A stretch of DNA of 64,000 nt from a virus. The notes below the pieces were generated by a model, which saw only the letters and a list, made by a program, of their open reading frames with translations, made no database searches and was not told the origin of the DNA. The position numbers were made by a program, and so were the translations under genes. The stretch is from positions 30,375 to 94,374 of the IMG/VR virus record IMGVR_UViG_3300043313_001220. One strand, written 5' to 3'. Shown piece after piece: positions 1 to 64,000 of this stretch (within the stretch, counting starts at the first letter, position 1; each line of letters begins with the position of its first letter).

Positions 1-548
1 TCGGTGTACTGGATGCCGGTCTGGCGGGTGATCGGGTTGCGCGGGAACGACTGGAGGATGCCGGACGGCTCCAGGACCGCCTCGATCTTCTTCGTGTCCG
101 CGCTGCGCTGGCCGACAAACAGCTTGTCCTCCAGCACGACGATGTGCTCGGCGATGAACGACAGCGTCCCCTTCTTGGTCGCGCCGTAACGCGCCGGGAG
201 GTTGTCGACGGCGCGGGCGACCGACGCGGCCTCCTTCAGAGCGGCCTTCAGATGACGGCCTTCGATGTACAGGCCGTCCTGCGGGTCGCGCTTGAAGCCG
301 TTCAGGTGGCGACGCTTGTCGACCTCCTTCAGCGCCTCATCCTCAGTGACACCGCGGGCGGCCATGACCTCGGCGACCGCCTGGGCGATGATGTCCTCCT
401 TGTCGAGGCCCATCTTGCTCTTCAGCCAGCCCTCGGCGACCTTCGGGTCGGACGGGGTGCCGCCCATCAGTCGCTCGATCTGGATCTCTCCGGCGAACCG
501 GAACGGGTAGACCCGGTTGATGTCAGCGGCGAACACATTCTTGGCCAT
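1..548 (-). CDS. Cas7/RAMP-like protein (partial, runs off left edge; absent from ORF track)
   Basis: Hand translation from ATG at 548: MAKNVFAADINRVYPFRFAGEIQIERLMGGTPSDPKVAEGWLKSK...HLNGFKRDPQDGLYIEGRHLKAALKEAASVAR...FIAEHIVVLEDKLFVG...TGIQYTE. FKRD..DGLYIEGRHLKAALKEAA resembles the Cas7/RAMP 'g.p.Ip.ss.KG.lR' strand-helix motif. RBS-like GAGAGGG and a strong promoter upstream. Confidence 0.7.
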   Translation of the reverse strand, partial: MAKNVFAADINRVYPFRFAGEIQIERLMGGTPSDPKVAEGWLKSKMGLDKEDIIAQAVAEVMAARGVTEDEALKEVDKRRHLNGFKRDPQDGLYIEGRHLKAALKEAASVARAVDNLPARYGATKKGTLSFIAEHIVVLEDKLFVGQRSADTKKIEAVLEPSGILQSFPRNPITRQTGIQYT

Positions 549-591
549 CTGTGGCCCTCTCTGTGGTGTGGGTGGTGCGGTGTGCCCCAGA

Positions 592-620
592 AGCATATCC
601 CGTGGCACATGGGGTGTCAA
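592..620 (-). promoter_or_regulatory. Sigma70/HrdB-type promoter for the Cas7-like gene with overlapping operator
   Basis: Minus strand TTGACA-N17-TATGCT; plus strand TGGCAC-N5-GTGTCA palindrome at 603-619. Confidence 0.8.
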
Positions 621-1480
621 GCAGTGTGTTGGTGGAGCCCAGCTCGGGCTAGCTGGCGCGGGTCGCCAACCCGCCAACGTGCGATCCGGCAGTAGTCGGC
701 GGACAGGTCGACCGAGATGCCGACACGTCCGAGGGCTTTCGCAGCCAGAGCTGTTGTGCCGCCCCCCCCCATCGGGTCCAGCACTACGCCGCCGGGCGGG
801 CACCAGCCCTCAATGATGGCGAGCGGCCACTCCAACGGAAACGCTGAATGGTGCCGCACCCCGAGATACTCCGGCACGCGCAACGCCGCCGACTTGACCG
901 CATGTACCGACCGCATTCCGGGAATGGATCGATCGGCCTTGCGGCTGGCATAATAATCGATTCGCTGGCTAAAGTGATACCAGGTCTCATGCGTGCGTGC
1001 CGCCCGGTCCCTGGCCGGATCGGGAACCGCGTTCGGCTTATCCCAGATCACCTCCGCCCGCAAGGTTAATCTGAGATCATCCACACATGCGATGGCGTAG
1101 CGCTGGGGCAGCTGGAGCAGGCTTTTAGGACTGCCGGTCGGTACGCACCGGTTGTTGTGGCCGATGCCCTGCTTGCTGTTTGTGCCCGAGATAGTGGTGC
1201 GCGTACCGCGGCCGTATTTGTCGCCCAGATTGACCCACAATGACCCGCGCGGTTTGAGTACCCGCAGCCACTCCCGCGTGCACCGGACCAGGCTGTCAAC
1301 ATATTCGCCGGGGGTGGGCTCGGCCCCGACCTGGCCTTCGTAGACCTCGCCGCCATCCTCATAAGCGCGCAGCGACCAATATGGCGGGCTGGTGATGATC
1401 AAATCCACCGAGCCGGTGGTCAGGGGCAACGCACCCGCGTCACCCCTGACCACCAACGCCGATCCGGTCAACGGGCGCAC
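617..1480 (-). CDS. DNA methyltransferase, N6_N4_Mtase beta class (SPPY suggests N4-cytosine)
   Basis: IITSPPY catalytic motif; VLDPMGGGGTT SAM-binding motif; H.AFP motif. Confidence 0.92.
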   Translation of the reverse strand: MRPLTGSALVVRGDAGALPLTTGSVDLIITSPPYWSLRAYEDGGEVYEGQVGAEPTPGEYVDSLVRCTREWLRVLKPRGSLWVNLGDKYGRGTRTTISGTNSKQGIGHNNRCVPTGSPKSLLQLPQRYAIACVDDLRLTLRAEVIWDKPNAVPDPARDRAARTHETWYHFSQRIDYYASRKADRSIPGMRSVHAVKSAALRVPEYLGVRHHSAFPLEWPLAIIEGWCPPGGVVLDPMGGGGTTALAAKALGRVGISVDLSADYCRIARWRVGDPRQLARAGLHQHTA

Positions 1481-1716: not shown

Positions 1717-2101
1717 CAACGACCTCCTTCGGATGGGGCCACATGTGCGGCAGACCGCAGCCTTCGCACTGCGGCGCGCTGCTCGGGCATCCCGGCTCCA
1801 GCCGGGCCATCTCCTCGACCGTCCAGACCCGCGGGCAGGGGTCGCACAGGTCCTCGCCCTGACAGCCCCAGTAGAACCGGGTCCGGTCGAGCGACACCAA
1901 TATGGGTGCCCCGGCATGCCACAGATCCTCCCAACACAACCAGCCGTCACGGTCGATGTTGAACCAGTTCCAGTTCATCGACGACGGGACGTTGAACCAC
2001 CGCTGGTCGCCGAGCAGGACGACCGAGAACGGCGGGGGTGGCCGTGGCACGACGATCGGGCAGGGGTCCAGACCGCAGATCTTGCAGCCCCGGCCTACCA
2101 C
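1709..2101 (-). CDS. Cys/Trp-rich hypothetical protein
   Basis: 130 aa ORF coupled to neighbours; several CxxC. Confidence 0.55.
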   Translation of the reverse strand: MVGRGCKICGLDPCPIVVPRPPPPFSVVLLGDQRWFNVPSSMNWNWFNIDRDGWLCWEDLWHAGAPILVSLDRTRFYWGCQGEDLCDPCPRVWTVEEMARLEPGCPSSAPQCEGCGLPHMWPHPKEVVGG

Positions 2102-2901
2102 AGCGGTTCCGGCACCGGCTCGGGCTCAGGTGCTGCCGCTGGGCGCGGAATGACCGGCCACTCTGGGCGGCAATCCTCGGCCCGCGCCAAAGTCTCCTGA
2201 CGCTTCTGCGGGTCGGTCTCCTTGGCCGCCTCCCCGCGCAGCCACGAAGCGAAGGACTTCTGCTGCTTCGCCCGCCAACGAACCTGCTCGTCGTGGAGGT
2301 CATCCAGTTTCATCTCGGCGATCTTTGGATACTTCTTGCAGATCGCCCAGGCGACCCGGCCGGCAGCCAAAGCGTCGACCGTCGAGTCGTGGGCGTTCTG
2401 GCCGATCTCCACTCTGTAATACTCGCACAACGCCCCGAGGTTGCGCTTGCCTTTACGCCGGTCCAGTTCTTTATCTAAGATGAACACATCAACGACTGGC
2501 CGGACGCCATTCGGCAGGCGGTCGCCCAGCGTCTTGATCCCATGTCGCTCGCTCTCGTGGTGCAGCAGAGATAGGTCGTAGCCACCATTCATCGTGACCA
2601 CCGGCACGCCCTGCCCCATGAAGGTCGCCAACATGGAGGTGAACTGTTCGATCACCTCCGGCGCGGGCTTGCCATGTTCGCGGGCGCGCTCGGTCGTAAT
2701 GCCATGCACCGCCGACGCGCCAGCGGGGATCTCAATTCCCGGGTCTGCCATCCACTCGTAGACCTTCGGCAGCCGGGAGCCGCCTTCTGGTGGCCGGGGT
2801 GGGACCAGTATCACGCAGGCGGTGACGATGCGATCGTTGAACACATCAACGCCGGTCGTCTCTGTGTCCATAAGGGCGAGATGCCCGTCATACCAGCTCA
2901 T
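2095..2901 (-). CDS. DnaQ-like DEDDh 3'-5' exonuclease
   Basis: MSWYDGHLALMDTETTG (ExoI), VHGIT, NGGYDLSLL (ExoII), AHDSTVDA (ExoIII). Confidence 0.92.
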   Translation of the reverse strand: MSWYDGHLALMDTETTGVDVFNDRIVTACVILVPPRPPEGGSRLPKVYEWMADPGIEIPAGASAVHGITTERAREHGKPAPEVIEQFTSMLATFMGQGVPVVTMNGGYDLSLLHHESERHGIKTLGDRLPNGVRPVVDVFILDKELDRRKGKRNLGALCEYYRVEIGQNAHDSTVDALAAGRVAWAICKKYPKIAEMKLDDLHDEQVRWRAKQQKSFASWLRGEAAKETDPQKRQETLARAEDCRPEWPVIPRPAAAPEPEPVPEPLW

Positions 2902-3502
2902 GCTGACGCTCCCGCTTCCTTTTCGTGTGGCTTTTGATGTCGTCACGCCCACACGCTCGACAGACGCGGTGACCGCGATAGATCCTCGTGTTCGTCTCAT
3001 TCCAGGGGTGCCCCCTGGCGCAGTGCCCCTTGCGACGCCTGTTGCTAACTTGCACGCTGGCCGTAGCCCAGCGGCAGTTGTTGGGGCCATATCCGAGATC
3101 GTTGTTGATCCGGTCCAGCGACAGGTGGGGTGCGGGCCGCCGCCCCATGTCCACCAGGAAGGCCGAGAACCGCCCCCACCGGAGGCACACCGATATGCCG
3201 CGCCCCCCGTAGTTGTGGTAGTTCTTGTTCGTTGGGTTGGTACAGCGGTCCAGCATGGACCACCACGCGCGGTATTCGGGTGTTCCCCACATGCCGGCAC
3301 GCGAGCCACGTTCGATAGCCAGCTCGTCATGCAGACACCCGCACGATTGTGTCACCCCCCAGCTACGACACAGAAGTAGACGCTCGGCCCCACAGTCGCA
3401 TCGACACGCAATGCGGGGCTCATCGTTGTAGCGCGGTTTGGTCACCACCAAGCGACCAAACCGCACTCCCACCTCGTGAGTGACCACGACCCCTCGACTC
3501 AT
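2888..3502 (-). CDS. HNH homing endonuclease
   Basis: EYRAWWSMLDRC...YGGRGISVC.RW..F...DMG...SLDRINND.GY.PNNCRWAT. Confidence 0.88.
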   Translation of the reverse strand: MSRGVVVTHEVGVRFGRLVVTKPRYNDEPRIACRCDCGAERLLLCRSWGVTQSCGCLHDELAIERGSRAGMWGTPEYRAWWSMLDRCTNPTNKNYHNYGGRGISVCLRWGRFSAFLVDMGRRPAPHLSLDRINNDLGYGPNNCRWATASVQVSNRRRKGHCARGHPWNETNTRIYRGHRVCRACGRDDIKSHTKRKRERQHELV

Positions 3503-4845
3503 CGCAGTTTGGCCGCCAATGCCTGCATCTGTGCGACGGTGGCCAGCTGCCGGTCGACCCTGAACTCTTCGTGCAGCATCCGGTCGATGTCGGCGGTTTT
3601 AAGCTTTTTCATCCCCGCCGCCCCAAGCAGCTGCATCATCGCATCCTTGCGCGCCTGTGGGTCGTCGGTGGCCGCGATCTGCTCCTCCGGCTCACCGTCC
3701 TCCCACGGCGCGCTGACCGCCGGCAGGGTCGTCGACGCCTCTGGAGTGGCCTCCGGGTCAGCGGGAGGGTCGAGCAGGGCCTCGGATTCCCCCGGGTCCT
3801 CCTGCCAAGCTTCCTGGACATCCAGGCGGGCGTCACGGGCCTTCTTCGTATCGATCCGGGCCTGCGCCCGCTGGGCCTCCGACTCCTGCGTGCGCTGGGC
3901 GGTCAGCACCTGCTGGCGGGCCTGCCAGGCGTCGATCAGCTGCTGGTGGTCGCCGGTCTCCTTGATCCTCTTGCGGATCCCAGCCATCTCCGCGTTGGTC
4001 GTGGCCTTCGCGATCGCCTCCAGCGCCTTCGGGATGTTGGGGGCGGGAGGCACGGGGGGCACGGGGGGCACGGGAGGCACGGGAGGCACGGTGGCCGGAG
4101 CCGCCTCGATTGCCGTGGCGCGGGAGGGTTCGATGGCCGCCCGCATGGCAGCAGCCTGCTGGTCGCGGCCAAGCTGCAACACGGTGCTGACCGCGTCTGA
4201 GCCGACCTGCACCGTTCGGGAGGTCACCCCGTCTAACAACAGGATCGGCACGTTGTAATCTTTGGTGACCACTTTTCTCTCTTTGCGGTCGTATTGGCGG
4301 GACTCGCGGTTCTCCAGCAACAAGCGGGCGGGCAACGGCATGCGGATGCCCGCGATCATGTCGAACAGCTGGACCATCTCGCCGGCCGCATAATACCCAT
4401 GGGTCTCAAGCCCCCACACACCCAGGCCCGGCACGTCGGCCAAAAGCAAATCGACCCGGGTGGTCGGCTTACATCTCCGAGTTTCCGGGTCGCAGTCACA
4501 AGTGTCCCCATAGATCTGGTCCTGAACGCCGTCACAGCGGCGGCTGCACACGCCACCCGACCACAGCTCGTATGTCGGGTCAACAATCTGGGGAGGGATG
4601 AAGACTGGAATCAGCGCCGCATCGGTCACCACCTGCCACTGCTTGCCCCGGGGGGCGTCCGCCCATACCTCCATCTCTCCACCGTAGAGCGCTGCCACCT
4701 CTTCCACGAGGTGCTGGGCCGCACTTGTAAAGCGCAGAGTATCCAACCGGCTGGGCCGTTCCTTGCCCGAGCTGGTCTTGACCTTGCGGCCCAGCCGGAT
4801 GCGGCCCACCCGTACTGAGCGGATCTGGAGGTCTCGAATGGCCAT
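3499..4845 (-). CDS. recombination directionality factor-like (Gp3/RDF-like) recombination protein
   Basis: MAIRDLQ...VGRIRLG...PSRLDTLRFTS...CSRRCDG...CDC....CKPTTRV...GVWGLETHGYYAAGE pattern typical of actinophage RDF-like proteins; low-complexity C-terminus. Confidence 0.75.
   Translation of the reverse strand: MAIRDLQIRSVRVGRIRLGRKVKTSSGKERPSRLDTLRFTSAAQHLVEEVAALYGGEMEVWADAPRGKQWQVVTDAALIPVFIPPQIVDPTYELWSGGVCSRRCDGVQDQIYGDTCDCDPETRRCKPTTRVDLLLADVPGLGVWGLETHGYYAAGEMVQLFDMIAGIRMPLPARLLLENRESRQYDRKERKVVTKDYNVPILLLDGVTSRTVQVGSDAVSTVLQLGRDQQAAAMRAAIEPSRATAIEAAPATVPPVPPVPPVPPVPPAPNIPKALEAIAKATTNAEMAGIRKRIKETGDHQQLIDAWQARQQVLTAQRTQESEAQRAQARIDTKKARDARLDVQEAWQEDPGESEALLDPPADPEATPEASTTLPAVSAPWEDGEPEEQIAATDDPQARKDAMMQLLGAAGMKKLKTADIDRMLHEEFRVDRQLATVAQMQALAAKLR
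4045..4092 (-). repeat. 9-bp coding tandem repeat (PVPPVPPVPPVPP linker)
   Basis: GGCACGGG(G/A) repeated about 4 times. Confidence 0.8.
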
Positions 4846-5383
4846 CCCATTGCTCCTTCTTCTCGGTGTAGTCAATGAAGCGCTCCCGGTGGCGCTCAAA
4901 GCGCCCCAGGAGCCGATTGCAAGGTGTGCACAGGACGCCCCTGACGCACTTACCGCACGTGCGCTTACCCGGACAGCAGCTGTGATCGTGGTCGACCGGG
5001 AATCGCGGGGCCCCGGGTTCCCCGCTCGACATCTCGCCACAGATCGCACAGCCGCCACCCTGCGCGGCCAGCAACGCATCGTAGTCCTCGGGGGTCAGGC
5101 CATATCGCCTCAGTGTGATCCGCCGGCTGAGGGCCACCCGACGCTCTTGGTTCGTAATAGCCCACGCGCGCTGAGTGGCCGCCCTGCGCTCCGGGTTCGC
5201 GGCCCTCCATGCGCGGTTGGTGGCCGCTACGCGCTCCAGATTTGCGGTTGCCCATGCGCGGTGGGTGGCTGCGCGACATGCCCTACATTGGGACTCCAGC
5301 CCGTCCCGACCGGTCTTGCGCTTGGAAAACCCCCCGAGCCCCTTCGTCTCCCCGCACTTGCTACAGCGTTTCGTCTCTTCCAT
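4580..5383 (-). CDS. endonuclease VII-family HNH nuclease with N-terminal Zn finger
   Basis: KRCSKCGE...CRAC; YGLTPEDYDALLAAQGGGCAICG...VDHDH...VRGVLCTPCNRLLG. Confidence 0.88.
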   Translation of the reverse strand: MEETKRCSKCGETKGLGGFSKRKTGRDGLESQCRACRAATHRAWATANLERVAATNRAWRAANPERRAATQRAWAITNQERRVALSRRITLRRYGLTPEDYDALLAAQGGGCAICGEMSSGEPGAPRFPVDHDHSCCPGKRTCGKCVRGVLCTPCNRLLGRFERHRERFIDYTEKKEQWDGHSRPPDPLSTGGPHPAGPQGQDQLGQGTAQPVGYSALYKCGPAPRGRGGSALRWRDGGMGGRPPGQAVAGGDRCGADSSLHPSPDC

Positions 5384-5391
5384 CTTTCACC

Positions 5392-5757
5392 TCCTGGGGG
5401 GTCGTCGTGTGGAACGGGCCGGTTAGTCGTGTGGTCTGGGCCGGTGTCTGACGGCCTCGGAATGTCGGCGGGATTGGACGGTACTGGGTGGGCAAGTCGG
5501 GCGGCGTACGGGTTGGCAAGTCGATAAGAACGGATTCGCAGGGTCGTGCGGGCTGGGCGGACTTGTCCGGGGCTGGCATGTCGGCGCGGGAGGGGGGAGG
5601 GGGGGAATGTCGGGCTGTGCGGGTTCGCGGGCGGATGGCCGGGAATGTCGTACGGGCGGGCTGGGATTGCGACGGAGGGGCAAGTCGGTGCGGCGGGGTG
5701 TGGATGGGGAAGTCGGGTTGGGACGCACCGGTGGGGTTCGGGTTGTCGGGTTGGTCA
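5392..5757 (-). repeat. Non-coding pentamer-periodic array (CGAC anchor + NNNCC pentamers), about 13 units
   Basis: Minus strand reads TGAC..CGAC aaccc gaacc ccacc ggtgc gtccc aacc CGAC ttccc catcc acacc ccgcc gcac CGAC ttgcc cctcc gtcgc aatcc cagcc cgccc gta CGAC attcc...; fills the whole intergenic gap. Confidence 0.85.
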
Positions 5758-20203: not shown

Positions 20204-20232
20204 TTGCCACGCCCGGTGGCGTGTGGCAGGAT
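20204..20232 (+). promoter_or_regulatory. Candidate promoter driving the large array
   Basis: TTGCCA-N17-CAGGAT just upstream of the first unit; operator-like TGCCAC-N5-GTGGCG. Confidence 0.55.
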
Positions 20233-20236
20233 AGGG

Positions 20237-21484
20237 GGACAAACCAGGCCAGTGCGCCTCCCGACTAGCCAGTTCGTACCACACGACAAGCCTGCCCCCC
20301 TCGCATCCGCTGCACACCGACAAGTCGTGCCGCCGCAAGCCCAGCCCACCCCCCGCTCGCCGACACATCTAGCCGTACCACACGACAAGCCTGCCCAGTG
20401 CAATGCCGCCCAGCCTTGACGACACCCCAGACCGACATATGCCCGACTGTTCACATCCACCCTACCGCCGTCCGACACCGCACGCCACACCCTCGCGCTC
20501 CGTACGACCAACCTCTCCGAATCTTGCCGACGCGCACGACATGCCGCTCTCGACACCGCCCGACCCGCACCGACACAGCACGCCGGTCCGACCCAACCGA
20601 CACGCCCGGCCACCGCAGGACTCACGACAGATCTGCCCAGCGCTCACCCATGCGACTACCCGTCCCACAGCTGGTCGGCCCCTACCCCGACACCCGACAT
20701 GGCCCATCTGTCCCAGCCGCCCGACATGCCATCCCAGCCGAGTCCTCCCCGACACTCCACCCTCAGCCGCAACGCCCCGAGACGACAGATCTGTTCCGCC
20801 CACCCCATGTGACTACCCTGCCCGGCCCTGCTCCAATATCGACTACCCGACGCAACCCCAGAGCCCCCGCTGACATATCCAGCCCGCCCGCCCCAGGCGA
20901 CCAGCCACCCCAGCTCCTGTGTCGACAACCCGATCGGCGTCACGCCAGACCCAACCCGACGACAGCCCAGACCCGCACTGTCTTACCCCGTGCTCGGACC
21001 GCCCATCCCACCCGACAAGCCCACCCGGGCCGGTACAACCCCAGCCGTGCCCCACCCCCCGACTACCCTACACACCCCAGTGCGGATCCGACACGCCATC
21101 TCATCGCACCGCCGCCGACTACCCCGGCCCTTCGTGCCCTGTCTCCGACGACCCGTGCCATCCGACAAGCCCAGCCGCGCCGATGCAACCCCACTGCGAC
21201 CATCCATCCCGCGTCATTGCGGGCCCGACACGCCATCCCTGGCATCCCCGACCCGGTACCGACAAGCCCAGCCGCCGCGCTTCATATCGACAAGCCGACC
21301 CACGCCACCCCGTGTCCTCTCCCGGCCCGTCCGACAGTGCGTCCCCACGCCGCCCAGTGGCTTCCCCACCCATCCCCCATGGCACGCCCGATCAAAGCGG
21401 CGTACTGACGAGCCCGTCCCCACCCGGCCCCCCGACAAGCCGAGCGAACTCCAACCCAGCCCCTACGACAACCCGCTGGACCGA
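20237..21484 (+). repeat. Large non-coding pentamer-periodic array (about 40 units), candidate guide-RNA array
   Basis: CGAC followed by aagcc/taccc/atgcc/acgcc then 2-8 NNNCC-like pentamers, e.g. CGAC aagcc caccc gggcc ggtac aaccc cagcc gtgcc ccacc ccc CGAC. Confidence 0.88.
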
Positions 21485-21498
21485 TAGGGAAGAGAGAT

Positions 21499-22965
21499 AT
21501 GGACAGGCGATACGAGAGTGCCGATGTCACAGCGATCTGGAGCGACCAGGGCCGCAACCTGGTCGAACGCAGCATCTGGGTCGAGGTGATGCGAGCCCAG
21601 CGCGAAGCCGGAATCGACATCCCGGAAGACCAGATCGACGCGTACGCCGACCTGGCAGCCAGCCAGGCACTGCTGGACCCGGACCACGAGGAAGCCCTGC
21701 TCGAAACGCAGGACATCGCCGAGCTGGAGAGAGAGACCAAACATGACCTGTACGCCCGACTGCGGTGGTTCAACGAGAGTGTCGGAGGCGACCACGCCCA
21801 CCGCGGGTTGACCTCGGCCGACATCACCGAGAACACCCAGCAGATCCAGATCGTCGCCTCCGCCGAACTGCTGCTAGAACACGCTGAGCAGGTCCTGCGC
21901 CGGATGTACGAGCGTGCCGGGGTGTTCGCCACGGTGCCGATCGTCGCCCGCACCCATGGCCGACCCGCGCAGCTGACCACCATTGGCAAGCGGATCACCG
22001 ACTGGATGCAGGAGCTGATGGGGGCGATGGTCACTCTCCAGGGGGCCATCGAAGGTTACGTGCCGCGGGGGATCAAAGGCGCGGTCGGCACCAGTGCCGA
22101 CATGGCGCGGACGTTGCTGTCCGGCCTGCCGGAGGGCAGCCCCGCCAGCAGGTGGGTGGCCGCCCGCCTGGCCGCCGGCACGCTGGACGACCGGGTGTCG
22201 TCCAAGCTGGCAGGCGAGACCACATCGATGCTGTCGACCGGGCAGTGTTACCCACGCTCGGCCGACCTGCCGATCATCTCCGCGACGTTGCAGCTCGCCG
22301 CCGCGTGCGGCACGGTCGCCACTGCCGTGCGGCTGATGTCCGCGCTCGGCCTGGCGGTCGAGAACCCCGACGCGCATGTCGGGTCGTCGGCCATGCCCCA
22401 CAAGAGCAACCCGCGCTACAGCGAGCGGGTCTGCAGCCTCCAGGTGGTCGCACGCGGGTATGCGGGAATGTTGCAGGAGACCGCCGGCACGCAGTGGCTG
22501 GAAGGTGACGTGTCGACCTCTGCGGCCCGCCGGATCGCCCTGCCGGGGCTATTCCACACGGTGGATTCGATGCTGGCCAACACCGCCTGGGTGTTGGACC
22601 ATCTGGTGTTCGACCTGGAGGCGATCAAGGACGAGCGCGACCTGTGGATGCCGGAGATGGCATCCGGCGCGCTGTTGGCCGCACTGGTCGAGAACGGGGT
22701 GCCACGTCAGAAGGCACACGAGGTACTGCGGCACCATTATCGGCAGATCGGCGGCCCGGACTGCGAGAGCGACCGATCGGGGACGCTGATCTACCACCTG
22801 ACCAGTGAAGACGCAGAGTTCCGGCTGACTGCGGAGCAGACCCAGGCCGCGTTCGACCCGGAGATGTTGGTTGGTTCTGCGGTGGCGATCGTGGAGGCTG
22901 TGGTCGGTGCGGAGCTCGGCGAGCTGCTGGATGCCGACCCGGAATGGCCTGGCGACCTGGTGTGA
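21499..22965 (+). CDS. purB: adenylosuccinate lyase
   Basis: TKHD, HRGLTSADI, ARTHGRPAQLTT.GKR, KGAVGT, GSSAMPHKSNP signature. Confidence 0.93.
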   Translation: MDRRYESADVTAIWSDQGRNLVERSIWVEVMRAQREAGIDIPEDQIDAYADLAASQALLDPDHEEALLETQDIAELERETKHDLYARLRWFNESVGGDHAHRGLTSADITENTQQIQIVASAELLLEHAEQVLRRMYERAGVFATVPIVARTHGRPAQLTTIGKRITDWMQELMGAMVTLQGAIEGYVPRGIKGAVGTSADMARTLLSGLPEGSPASRWVAARLAAGTLDDRVSSKLAGETTSMLSTGQCYPRSADLPIISATLQLAAACGTVATAVRLMSALGLAVENPDAHVGSSAMPHKSNPRYSERVCSLQVVARGYAGMLQETAGTQWLEGDVSTSAARRIALPGLFHTVDSMLANTAWVLDHLVFDLEAIKDERDLWMPEMASGALLAALVENGVPRQKAHEVLRHHYRQIGGPDCESDRSGTLIYHLTSEDAEFRLTAEQTQAAFDPEMLVGSAVAIVEAVVGAELGELLDADPEWPGDLV

Positions 22966-24066: not shown

Positions 24067-26319
24067 GTGGCCGAGAGCAACCAGACGACCAGCATCGACC
24101 ATGTTGAAAGTCCCAGGGTGGAGCCGCCCGGGGATGTGCGACTCCAGCTCGCGGCACTCGAAGGGTGGGCCAACAACCGGGCCATGCAACCCGAGATGCG
24201 GCTGCGTGCCGCGCTCCAGGCCCTCGCCCTGTGGCGCAAGCTCTACCCGGACCCCGAGGGGGACTGACATGGCACAGCGCTGGGCGGTACTTCGCCCGAA
24301 TGAGGACGGCCAGCACTTCCGGATGATCCGCGACGCCTCCATGTACCACATATTGGGCCACCCGGAGGAGTACGGCATTGGGAGATTTGCGGCGTTGGAT
24401 GAGCTGGACCCAGACCCGGCGGTCTGGGAGCCTGGCACCGCTGTCCTGCTGCGGGTCGAGGTCGTGGTCCCGGAGGCCGCTGGCGGCTACAAGCTCCCGG
24501 AGGACGCCGAATGAACCCGCGCCACACCCCCGAGTCGCTGCGCGCCCACAGCGCGGCCACCCTCAAGCTGGCCGAGTCTCACCTGAACGCGTCGAGCGAG
24601 GCATACCGCAAACGCTCCAGCATCCGCGGCGTGACGTTGGGCCCGGCCACCCACGACGCGCTTGCTGAGGCGTACCAGGCGTGGCGTGAATACCGGGCCG
24701 ACACCGCCCCGCCTGGGTGTCAGGATCTCATGATCCCTGAGCGTCAACCCGACGGCAGCGCGCCGGGGCTCACCCGCGTACACGGCTACGACGTCACCAT
24801 CGGCGATGTTGACGGTGGCATCGCCTGGGATATCGGCCCCGAGCCGCTGGTCCCCTTCGTATTCAGGGAGGTTGTCGAATGAGCGAGCTCGACGAGCCGC
24901 AAGACCCGCTGCTGGTCCAGCTGCACGACGCCCGGCTGGACCAGCAGGATGCCCACACCGAGGCCGTCCGCCTGATCCGCCATCTGTACGTCGACCTCGG
25001 CCAGGACGCGGGCGGTCCGCTGCACGTGGTCCTGGACGATGGCAATGTCGGCGACTTCTGGCTGCACGCGGGGCCGCACACCGATGGCTACGACCGCTAC
25101 GGCTATCTGTTCAACGGCGACTTCGCGCGTTGGTCGCAAGCCGGGGACGACGTCTCCCTAAAGCGCCGGAACGCCATCCGCGACACCTGCGAGCAGATCC
25201 TCGCCCTGCTACGCCCGATGTCCGAGCAGCATCGCCGCGACGCGATCAACGAGTTCTGGAAAGGATGGCGACCGTGAGCGGCATCCCGGCGGAGCCCACC
25301 TCGGCACAGTGCGACGCCAAGGAGCGCGTCTCAATCCCCGGGTCGACGGCCGTCGCCCATGCGGTCTGGTGGCCGCAGATGGGTGGCAAGCCCGGTAAGG
25401 CCGTAGCGACGATCGGGGACTGCTCGACGGTCTGGCTATGGCATGACGGACAGCTGCCGCTCAACGGGAGGGAACCCCGCCAGATCCACCTGTGTGGCTA
25501 TGGCGAGTGGATCGAGACGTTTGAATGGCTCAAATCGCGATATGAGCAGGAGTTTGACGAGGAGCCGGAGCCGTACGTCTGGGTCCTGCCGCAGGGGGTG
25601 ACCCGCGAGCAGGCGCAGGAGGTCTACGAGAAGATCGTCGCCTGGGGTCTGTGGGAGGTCGACCCGGGCGGGTTCCGGATCCGGACCTACGAAGAGGCGC
25701 ACGGGCCCTGCGAGCCAATCCCATGTCCGCCGTTCCAGGAGATCACCCTGCAAGCCTCGGCAGAGCGCATGGGACCGGCCCCGATCGACCAGAATCTGGC
25801 CATGCCTGCGAAGCTGGACAGCGAGTGGATGGACAGCTGGATGGGCGTGGTGAGCGCTGCCACAGCGGCAGGTTTCCTCCAGATCGACCTTCTACCCGCG
25901 CCCGGACCGGCGCAGATGCCCCGAATCATCACCCTGCCCGAGGGTGTCAACGCGGAGGAGGCCGACCGCTGGGTCCAAGGCTGCATCCAGCTCGGGATTA
26001 TCGAAGCCGGCACTGGCGGTGTGCTCTACCTCCCCCACGGGCAGCAGTTGTGAGGGCGCGCAATGTCGCTATCGCCGCGGCGATCGCCCTGGTCTTGGCC
26101 GGTGTCTGCTTCCTGATCCCCCCCAGCCCGCTCTACCCAGACGGGTCCGACCCGAACCCCGCCCCGACCCTACCGGCCTCTACTACGGTCGAGTACGTCC
26201 CGGTCGAGGGCAAGCTGGTGGTCTGTGTCTTCCGCTCCAACTACGGCATCTCCTGCGACTGGGCGAACGCCCGGCCGCTCGACGCCGGCACGACAGCCCA
26301 CGCCGTTCCGCCCAACTGA
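24067..26319 (+). other. Run of small coupled hypothetical genes (24067-24267, 24269-24514, 24511-24882, 24879-25277, 25274-26053, 26050-26319)
   Basis: ATGA/GTGA stop-start overlaps; no recognisable motifs. Confidence 0.6.
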
Positions 26320-26425
26320 CAATCCGCCCCATGCCTTCCACGATCCGCCCGACAGTGCGTCTCGACCCTGATCCACGCGTGCTACTGTTCAACCTCACGC
26401 TTCCCCTCCCATCCCGGACGACAGG
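26317..26425 (+). repeat. Mini pentamer-periodic array, about 2-3 units
   Basis: TGAC aatcc gcccc atgcc ttcca cgatc cgcc CGAC agtgc gtctc gaccc tgatc cacgc...ccctc ccatc ccgga CGAC aggagacac ATG. Confidence 0.7.
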
Positions 26426-63720: not shown

Positions 63721-64000
63721 TGCTGGTAACTCTCCATCTGGCTGAGGGCCAGACCGCCAAGCAGCTGATCGGTGAGGTCACCCGACTGGCCGGGGGTGCG
63801 CGTCCGCGTAGCGTCTCCGGTCGTTTCGGGGTCCTGGTCGATGCGGAGCTGGCGTACCGCTACCTCGCGGCCCGTTACGTACCGCCACCGGCTCCGATGC
63901 CGGTCCGGGAGTTGGCGTCTCCCCCTCCGACGCCAGCGGTGCCCGTCTCCGCGCCAGCGGTGCCCGTCTCCGCGCCAGCGGTGCCCGTCTCCGCGCCAGC
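63720..64000 (+). CDS. hypothetical protein, partial
   Basis: ATG overlaps upstream TGA; open to window end. Confidence 0.5.
   Translation, partial: MLVTLHLAEGQTAKQLIGEVTRLAGGARPRSVSGRFGVLVDAELAYRYLAARYVPPPAPMPVRELASPPPTPAVPVSAPAVPVSAPAVPVSAP
63933..64000 (+). repeat. 21-bp coding tandem repeat
   Basis: GCCAGCGGTGCCCGTCTCCGC x3 or more. Confidence 0.85.

What the first reader, a model, noticed from the sequence alone, without database searches (positions are those of the whole stretch)
1..620. Stand-alone Cas7/RAMP-like gene with its own strong promoter and no other cas genes nearby
Seen: an ORF missed by the track (it runs off the edge) with an N-terminal beta strand, an LMGGTP loop, FKRD..DGLYIEGRHLKAALKEAA and a TGIQYTE segment, driven by TTGACA-N17-TATGCT. 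Established: Cas7/RAMP proteins polymerise on RNA with a fixed nucleotide footprint per subunit. Inference: this is the effector for the pentamer arrays, possibly silencing rival phage or host genes. No cas1/2/3/5/6/8 genes or CRISPR repeats are visible in the window.
Basis: partly seen in the sequence, partly recalled or inferred. Interest (0 to 1): 0.9.

Follow-up and report, generated by a model that had tools for sequence, protein, structure and literature searches.

The report
Phage Vipr protein, C-coded guide arrays
The gene encodes a small Cas7-like RNA-binding protein of the phage-borne VIPR family (a CRISPR relative first described in 2026), and it is followed directly by an array of five-base-step guide units, so it is a real but divergent example of a published kind.

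Summary
A minus-strand ORF starts at window 548 and runs off the left edge. The full gene is 248 aa. The reported motifs and the TTGACA-N17-TATGCT promoter are all present.

The protein belongs to a large unannotated family (750 clusters at 50% identity) of actinophages and prophages. A family profile matches the profile of the characterised SUSP1 Vipr (PDB 36pp) at 94% probability, E 9e-8.

The gene is not truly stand-alone. A 427-nt array of CGAC-anchored NNNCC pentamers starts 2 nt after its stop codon, just outside the window. Four more arrays lie inside the window. In 47 of 50 related loci the same kind of array abuts the gene on its sense strand, and never on the antisense strand.

There is no cas1, no CRISPR array and no Pfam RAMP hit in the 94-kb genome.

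Differences from published VIPR:
- The sense strand is C-coded rather than GGY.
- Three guanine-reading residues are replaced.
- Units lack a 3' tail.
- The clade's partner gene is absent from this genome.

No targets were found. This scan has already met the same clade on other DNA.

The parts
1..548 (-). vipr-like gene: the 5' 182 codons of a 248-codon ORF. The rest lies left of the window, down to window -198 (genome 30176-30922; L001:1305-2048:-).
   Evidence: RAMP fold. Homology to the SUSP1 Vipr family.
592..620 (-). Promoter-like site TTGACA-17-TATGCT upstream of the gene. Its -35 overlaps a palindrome, TGACAC-N5-GTGCCA.
   Evidence: 10 of 12 positions; 1 site against 0.3 expected. This is a consensus match only.
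5400..5748 (-). Array B: about 13 CGAC-anchored units of NNNCC pentamers inside the leftward operon. It ends at the ribosome-binding site of the next gene.
9773..9889 (-). Array C: a small array of 4-5 units.
20237..21484 (+). Array D: the largest array, about 46 CGAC-anchored units, 48% C and 20% G, lying between a weak promoter-like site and the next + strand gene.
26291..26422 (+). Array E: 3-4 units; a weak case.

Best explanation
The gene encodes a divergent member of the Vipr family, the single-RRM, Cas7-like RAMP protein of phage-borne VIPR systems.

By homology, one protomer binds each five-base repeat of a guide RNA. The protomers form a filament that holds the fixed bases and presents the variable bases to double-stranded DNA. 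Binding silences genes of competing phages or other mobile elements.

In this phage the guides would be the roughly 85 short units of five arrays, each unit written CGAC + (NNNCC)n. One array starts 2 nt after the gene's stop codon and probably shares its transcript.

Shown here:
- the fold
- homology to a characterised Vipr
- the tight, strand-specific linkage of gene and array across the family
- the fast turnover of the arrays
- the absence of cas genes

Inferred:
- that the C-rich sense strand is the RNA that is bound
- that the RNP binds DNA
- the pairing rule
- the targets
For: Fold:
- The AF2 model has pLDDT 75.8.
- All top Foldseek PDB hits are Csm3 or type VII Cas7, E 3e-5, probability 1.0.
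- The BFVD hits are small viral RAMP-like proteins.

Sequence:
- The family profile A3 matches the SUSP1-Vipr family profile A2 at 94.4% probability, E 9.4e-8, over 127 columns. The match is collinear through helix 1, the thumb and the G-loop.
- An HMM of A2 picks this ORF as its only hit among 1,323 six-frame ORFs of the genome.
- The SUSP1 protein is PDB 36pp, 'SUSP1 Vipr protein'.

Linkage to arrays:
- 47 of 50 loci have at least 3 units within 1.2 kb on the sense strand, and 0 of 50 on the antisense strand.
- Unit density upstream of the gene is 10.2 per kb on the sense strand against 0.15 per kb on the antisense strand.
- In the array next to the gene, lag-5 C periodicity has z = 5.4, and there are 14 units against 1.3 in shuffles.
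- Pentamer position 5 is 83% C and position 4 is 62% C, while positions 1-3 are near-random.

Turnover: arrays share 56-59% nucleotide identity where the flanking vipr genes share 87-89%.

Context: this is a complete phage genome with no Cas1, no CRISPR array and no Pfam RAMPs hit.

Mechanism of the family.
Against: - The direct single-sequence comparison with SUSP1 Vipr is weak (probability 4%). The narrow profile reaches only 29.5%.
- The sense strand carries no GGY motif.
- Three of the four side chains that read the two guanines in SUSP1 Vipr are replaced: D177, W178 and R138 become A219, S220 and T182.
- Units are short (a median of about 5 pentamers against 9-16 published) and have no conserved 3' tail.
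- The clade's usual partner gene is missing from this genome and resembles no published vap that I could test.
- A target search under 20 pairing models gave nothing above shuffled guides.
- No RNA data exist for this phage.
Confidence: 0.8

Rival explanations
1. It is a VIPR system with canonical chemistry. The arrays are transcribed antisense to vipr. The guides are then G-rich (GGNNN)n-GTCG RNAs, equivalent to the published NNNGG class, and the 'C code' is only a strand artefact.
For: - The reverse complement of NNNCC is GGNNN. The discovery paper lists NNNGG, YNNNG and NNNNG repeats as alternative vrRNA types.
- Read antisense, each unit ends in a fixed GTCG, which would mimic repeats followed by a 3' tail.
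- The best-conserved pentamers lie next to that end.
Against: - The C-rich strand is the vipr sense strand in 47 of 47 loci that have an array. In SUSP1 the vrRNAs lie on the vipr sense strand.
- In most relatives the array fills the gap between the co-directional partner gene and vipr and ends at the vipr ribosome-binding site. An antisense promoter would therefore have to sit inside vipr.
- All five arrays of this genome follow the direction of the local genes.
- The guanine-reading residues D177, W178 and R138 are not conserved.
Confidence: 0.2
2. It is a decoy Cas7: a captured type III Csm3-like subunit that the phage uses as an anti-CRISPR by poisoning host Csm/Cmr complexes. On this reading it is unrelated to the C-rich tracts.
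For: The best solved-structure matches are Csm3 subunits, including the Csm3 of mycobacterial Csm complexes. Many actinobacteria carry type III systems (general knowledge).
Against: - There is no sequence-level match to any Cas7, Csm3 or Cmr4 model in Pfam, NCBIfam or PADLOC. The only signal is a weak Csm4 G-loop hit, E 0.0027.
- The profile match is to Vipr, not to Cas7.
- The near-universal strand-specific linkage to pentamer arrays would be left unexplained.
Confidence: 0.05
3. It is an RRM-fold nucleic-acid-binding protein of the replication and recombination module, for example a single-strand binder or a regulator that coats C-rich tracts of DNA or mRNA, with no guide function.
For: - In this genome the gene sits between a DNA methyltransferase and a RuvC-like resolvase, in a block of exonuclease, HNH and Gp3-like genes.
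- The RRM fold is common.
- No targets were found.
Against: - This neighbourhood is not conserved in relatives, whereas the array is.
- The variable positions of the arrays turn over while the fixed C's and the CGAC anchors stay, as expected for guides rather than binding sites.
- The protein is homologous to a protein shown to be RNA-guided.
Confidence: 0.1

Closest known systems
Type II VIPR system of Escherichia phage SUSP1 (Vipr ALH47069.1, PDB 36pp; vap1; four vrRNAs). Sources: bioRxiv 10.64898/2026.04.26.720920 and 10.64898/2026.04.26.720927.
   Same: - It is phage-borne.
- It has one small single-RRM RAMP protein with a G-loop and thumb, and profile-profile homology (94%, E 9e-8).
- There are no cas genes and no CRISPR array.
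- 5-nt tandem-repeat arrays lie on the sense strand next to the gene.
- The variable positions are hypervariable between relatives.
   Different: - The protein is 248 aa against 195 aa, with a three-helix insertion after strand 1.
- The G-loop reads GIGASRSQGYGR instead of GVGDWRPRFGR, so D177, W178 and thumb R138 are replaced.
- The repeats are NNNCC on the sense strand instead of YNNGG.
- Units are short, start with CGAC, have no folded 3' tail and lie back to back.
- There are about 85 units in five dispersed arrays against four vrRNAs.
- There is no vap1 homologue.
Non-canonical VIPR arrays: NNNGG, YNNNG and NNNNG in 10.64898/2026.04.26.720920; GAC/NN, CAC/NN, WGT/NN and TGH/NN in 10.64898/2026.10.21.760802. 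Also the 'staggered' arrays of the first paper.
   Same: They have 5-nt periodicity with a fixed part other than GGY, a Vipr-like fold encoded nearby, and units that abut each other without spacers.
   Different: The text I could read does not name a CC-fixed or C-rich motif or an actinophage clade. I could not see the supplementary tables or figures, so whether this clade is already among the 667 classified systems is unknown.
CRISPR-Cas Cas7 subunits Csm3 (type III-A) and type VII Cas7.
   Different: - There is no sequence-model match.
- There is no cas operon, no CRISPR repeats and no Cas6 or Cas10 partner.
- The footprint is 5 nt rather than 6 nt.
- The conserved Asp after strand 1 is not invariant, so RNA cleavage is not expected.

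Membership tests
VIPR / Vipr protein | Single-RRM RAMP fold with a glycine-rich loop and a thumb | tested here: met
   The AF2 model has the order b1-a1-b2-b3-a2-(G-loop)-b4. Csm3/Cas7 chains are the top matches. The G-loop G216/G218/R221/G226 is invariant.
VIPR / Vipr protein | Detectable homology to an experimentally characterised Vipr | tested here: met
   hhalign of A3 against A2 (the SUSP1 family) gives 94.4% probability, E 9.4e-8, over 127 columns. The A2 HMM finds only this ORF in the genome, E 0.0027. The narrower profile gave only 29.5%.
VIPR / Vipr protein | Viral or proviral locus without cas genes or a CRISPR array | tested here: met
   The record is a complete 94-kb phage with terminase, portal and other phage genes. 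There is no Cas1, no Pfam RAMPs hit, no spaced repeats and no Rfam CRISPR family.
VIPR / Vipr protein | 5-nt tandem-repeat guide array next to the gene | tested here: met
   An array starts 2 nt after the stop codon. 47 of 50 related loci carry one within 1.2 kb on the sense strand.
VIPR / Vipr protein | Canonical GGY/NN (YNNGG) repeat on the transcribed strand | tested here: not met
   The sense strand reads NNNCC (position 5 is 83% C, position 4 is 62% C). Only the antisense strand would read GGNNN. SUSP1 arrays are G-rich on the sense strand.
VIPR / Vipr protein | Guanine-reading residues of SUSP1 Vipr (D177, W178, R138; R179 for Y3) | tested here: not met
   The aligned residues are A219, S220 and T/E182. 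Only R179 is kept, as the invariant R221. H17 could not be aligned.
VIPR / Vipr protein | Conserved structured 3' tail on each vrRNA | tested here: inconclusive
   Units abut each other, and CGAC is the only fixed element. This resembles the published 'staggered' arrays, whose figure I could not see.
VIPR / Vipr protein | Accessory vap gene in the locus | tested here: inconclusive
   27 relatives carry a conserved helical protein of about 180 aa upstream of the array. It has no known fold and no similarity to vap1. It is absent from this genome.
VIPR / Vipr protein | RNP formation with array RNA, sequence-specific dsDNA binding and silencing | not testable with these tools
   This needs RNA sequencing, a pull-down and reporter assays.
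CRISPR-Cas Cas7 (Csm3/Cmr4 group, Pfam RAMPs PF03787) | Match to a curated Cas7/RAMP sequence model | tested here: not met
   There is no Pfam, NCBIfam or PDB-sequence match, and PF03787 finds nothing in the genome. The only signal is a weak PADLOC Csm4 G-loop hit, E 0.0027.
CRISPR-Cas Cas7 (Csm3/Cmr4 group, Pfam RAMPs PF03787) | Encoded in a cas operon with a CRISPR array | tested here: not met

The most novel reading that the evidence does not exclude
This large actinophage clade of Vipr proteins has switched its fixed-base readout from GGY to CC. It would bind C-rich sense RNAs through a re-tooled G-loop (A-S in place of D-W) and present three variable bases per protomer instead of two. That would be a different gapped code. 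The phage would deploy it on an unusual scale: about 85 short guides in five arrays spread through both early operons, processed at CGAC anchors rather than at folded tails.
Probability: 0.45. Interest if true: 0.7.

Novelty: new variant of a known kind. Interest (0 to 1): 0.5.

Why it matters
VIPR systems were described only in 2026 and have been characterised in two proteobacterial examples. They are proposed as the ancestors of CRISPR RAMPs and as a new programmable way to bind DNA.

This finding places a very large, unannotated clade inside that family: 750 clusters at 50% identity in actinophages, prophages and Streptomyces-type genomes. It also shows that the clade departs from the published rules in three ways: its fixed bases, its guanine-reading residues and the layout of its arrays.

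If the C-rich strand is the guide, the protein would define a second recognition chemistry for this type of RNA-guided DNA binder, perhaps with three programmable bases per subunit. Even if it is not, the clade gives many natural guide sets for studying conflicts among actinophages.

Tried and rejected
- Sequence libraries. Pfam gave only a sub-threshold ANTAR hit on the helical insertion. PHROGs, NCBIfam and PDB sequence searches gave nothing useful.
- Array scan. My first genome-wide scan for long in-phase pentamer runs (at least 7-9 pentamers) found nothing above shuffles, because the units are short and the phase resets at each CGAC. Anchored patterns were needed.
- Target prediction. I tested 12 guides of at least 6 pentamers under 20 models: variable positions NNN, NN(1-2), NN(2-3), N1-4 or all five, each with skips of 0-3. 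The search space was about 0.9 Mb of related loci. Best matches equalled those of shuffled guides. That database is small. I did not scan the public collections, because exact patterns of 14-18 informative bases would give chance hits.
- Closer relative. I tried to fetch the 91%-identical relative (P0003) for an array comparison and found nothing.
- Structural comparison with Vipr. The fold libraries end in April 2026 and hold no Vipr structure, so I could not compare directly with 36pp.
- Partner protein. It has no fold match in the PDB and nothing usable in the ESM Atlas.
Neighbourhoods came from the search for related loci instead.
- Published tables. No supplementary tables were held for the discovery paper. 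I could not check whether this clade is already among its seven types.
- Other readings. I considered an anti-CRISPR decoy and a recombination-module protein and rejected both (see the rival explanations).

Full report
**Observation.** The window is bases 30375-94374 of a 94,374-bp virus record with terminal repeats and 67% G+C. The ORF in the finding is on the minus strand. Its ATG is at window 548 and it leaves the window on the left. The full gene is L001:1305-2048:-, 248 aa.

The quoted motifs are all there: LMGGTP, FKRD..DGLYIEGRHLKAALKEAA and TGIQYTE. TTGACA-17-TATGCT lies at window 620-592 on the minus strand. It is the only sigma-70-like site in 2.4 kb, against 0.3 expected.

**What the protein is.**
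- No Pfam, PHROG, NCBIfam or PDB sequence match explains it.
- PADLOC gives a faint Csm4 hit on the G-loop region, E 0.0027.
- It belongs to a large, strongly conserved family with no annotation. There are more than 1,100 clusters at 90% identity and 750 at 50% identity, of which 168 score below 1e-30.
- Family members sit on phage-size contigs and in Streptomyces, Nocardiopsis, Streptacidiphilus and other genomes.
- An AlphaFold model built on 28 homologues has pLDDT 75.8 and an RRM order of strands and helices. The G-loop lies between the last helix and the last strand.
- The top Foldseek matches in the PDB are all Csm3 or type VII Cas7 chains, E 3e-5, probability 1.0.
- In the viral structure library, the five matches with probability 0.99 or more are small phage and archaeal-virus proteins (E 1.5e-9 to 1.6e-3). 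One is named a RAMP superfamily protein.

**Link to a known system.** Earlier notes of this scan pointed me to the VIPR preprints, which I then read.

VIPR systems consist of a single-RRM RAMP protein (Vipr), usually an accessory gene (vap), and vrRNAs made of 9-16 YNNGG pentamers plus a 3' tail. They are mostly phage-borne and have no cas genes. One Vipr protomer binds each repeat. The GGY bases are sequestered and the NN bases pair with DNA, skipping every third target base. This represses rival elements.

I fetched the SUSP1 locus. Its 195-aa protein is PDB 36pp, 'SUSP1 Vipr protein'.
- A direct comparison of our family with that single sequence is weak.
- With a narrow family profile it reaches 29.5%.
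- With a broader profile of 47 sequences drawn from the representative search it reaches 94.4% probability, E 9.4e-8, over 127 collinear columns. These cover helix 1, the thumb region and the G-loop.
- A plain HMM of the SUSP1-type family finds the studied ORF as its only hit among the 1,323 six-frame ORFs of the genome.

I therefore file the protein as a divergent Vipr.

**The gene is not alone.** Scanning for CGAC-anchored pentamer runs showed a cluster just left of the window. Two bases after the stop codon, a 427-nt tract of 17 units begins (genome 29748-30174, window -626 to -200, minus strand). It ends at the ribosome-binding site of a RuvC-like gene.
- The long 'RuvC' ORF owes its Pro-rich first 78 residues to this tract.
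- In the tract, C-to-C spacing of 5 is enriched (z = 5.4; 0 of 1,000 dinucleotide shuffles reach it).
- There are 14 GAC(NNNNC)3+ units against 1.3 +/- 1.1 in shuffles.

Four more arrays lie in the window:
- 5400-5748 (-)
- 9773-9889 (-)
- 20237-21484 (+, 46 units)
- a weak one at 26291-26422 (+)

Over 311 pentamers, position 5 is 83% C and position 4 is 62% C, while positions 1-3 are close to random. There are no arrays in the first 29 kb of the genome.

**Conservation of the linkage.** I fetched 49 related loci.
- Of 50 loci, counting this genome, 47 have at least three such units within 1.2 kb of the homologue on its sense strand. None has them on the antisense strand.
- Two of the three exceptions have under 100 nt of upstream flank.
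- Unit density is 10.2 per kb upstream on the sense strand, 0.15 per kb on the antisense strand, and 0.2-0.5 per kb elsewhere.
- In most relatives the order is a conserved partner gene of about 180 aa, then the array, then vipr. The last unit runs into the vipr ribosome-binding site.
- Between related pairs, the arrays are 56-59% identical and share at most one unit. The flanking vipr genes are 87-89% identical and the partner genes 78-79%.

This is the behaviour expected of guides.

**Where it departs from published VIPR.**
- In SUSP1 the sense strand of the arrays is G-rich YNNGG. Here it is NNNCC.
- In the profile alignment, SUSP1 residues D177 and W178 (G-loop) and R138 (thumb) hold the two guanines. 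They correspond to A219, S220 and T182 here. R179 is kept as the invariant R221.
- Units are short, have no folded tail and abut each other.
- The partner gene has no known fold (pLDDT 85; no PDB match) and no similarity to vap1. It is absent from this genome.
- The preprints do mention alternative repeats: NNNGG, YNNNG and NNNNG, and GAC/NN, CAC/NN and others. They also mention 'staggered' arrays. Non-canonical variants are therefore known in principle. I could not see the figures or tables needed to tell whether this clade is among them.

**Which strand is the guide?** Read antisense, the units would be (GGNNN)n-GTCG, which would fit the published NNNGG class.

I give this reading about 20%, for these reasons:
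- The C-rich strand is the vipr sense strand in every locus that has an array.
- In SUSP1 the vrRNAs also lie on the vipr sense strand.
- There is no room for an antisense promoter between the array and vipr in the common layout.
- All five arrays here follow the direction of the local genes.
- The guanine-reading residues are not kept.

Only RNA data can settle it.

**Function.** By homology, the protein most likely coats the array-derived RNAs, one protomer per pentamer, and directs them to DNA of competing elements. I could not find targets. Under 20 pairing models, real guides matched 0.9 Mb of related phage DNA no better than shuffled guides. Silencing, the pairing rule and the targets are therefore inferred, not shown.

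**Rival readings.** An anti-CRISPR decoy Cas7 or a recombination-module RNA or DNA binder would both leave the strand-specific, family-wide link to hypervariable arrays unexplained.

**Verdict.** The system is a divergent variant of a kind published in 2026. The same clade has already been met several times by this scan on other DNA, so my interest score is moderate.

Noticed in passing
window 11644-12864 (+), 14403-15548 (+), 21499-22962 (+): There is a PurZ-like gene (phrog_1211, E 2e-80), a dUTPase/dCTP-deaminase-like gene, and an ORF the size of adenylosuccinate lyase right after the big array. The phage probably makes 2-aminoadenine (Z) DNA.
   Followed up: partly
L001:250-1095 (-) = genome 29124-29969: This is a RuvC-like resolvase (phrog_159). 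Its annotated-length ORF is over-extended by about 78 Pro-rich codons that are really the C-rich array. The likely true start is the ATG after GGAGAC, near genome 29735.
   Followed up: partly
L002-L050, just upstream of the array and vipr (e.g. L019:2121-2672, L036:9137-9679): A conserved helical partner protein of about 180 aa occurs in 27 related loci. It has no Pfam or PHROG match, no PDB fold match and no similarity to SUSP1 vap1. It is absent from this genome. It is a candidate clade-specific accessory (vap-like) gene.
   Followed up: partly
window 10803-10909 (+): A 107-nt Rfam tRNA match (46 bits) lies at the start of the rightward gene block. It is longer than a normal tRNA.
   Followed up: no
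window 63925-64000 and genome 1-64: The same 21-nt unit is tandemly repeated at both ends of the record. This repeat is what produces the 'direct terminal repeat' call.
   Followed up: no
window 5161-5269: A 45-nt tandem repeat (2.4 copies) lies between the Gp3-like gene and array B.
   Followed up: no
window 603-619 and 20204-20232: The palindrome TGNCAC-N5-GTGNCA overlaps the -35 box of the vipr promoter. A similar site (TTGCCA-17-CAGGAT) sits just before the first unit of the big array. This hints at shared regulation and at + strand transcription of that array.
   Followed up: partly
window 617-1480 (-), 2095-3330 (-), 2888-3502 (-), 3499-5079 (-): The genes upstream of vipr are an N6/N4 DNA methyltransferase, a DnaQ-like exonuclease, an HNH endonuclease overlapping it in another frame, and a Gp3-like protein with a PPV-repeat linker.
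   Followed up: partly
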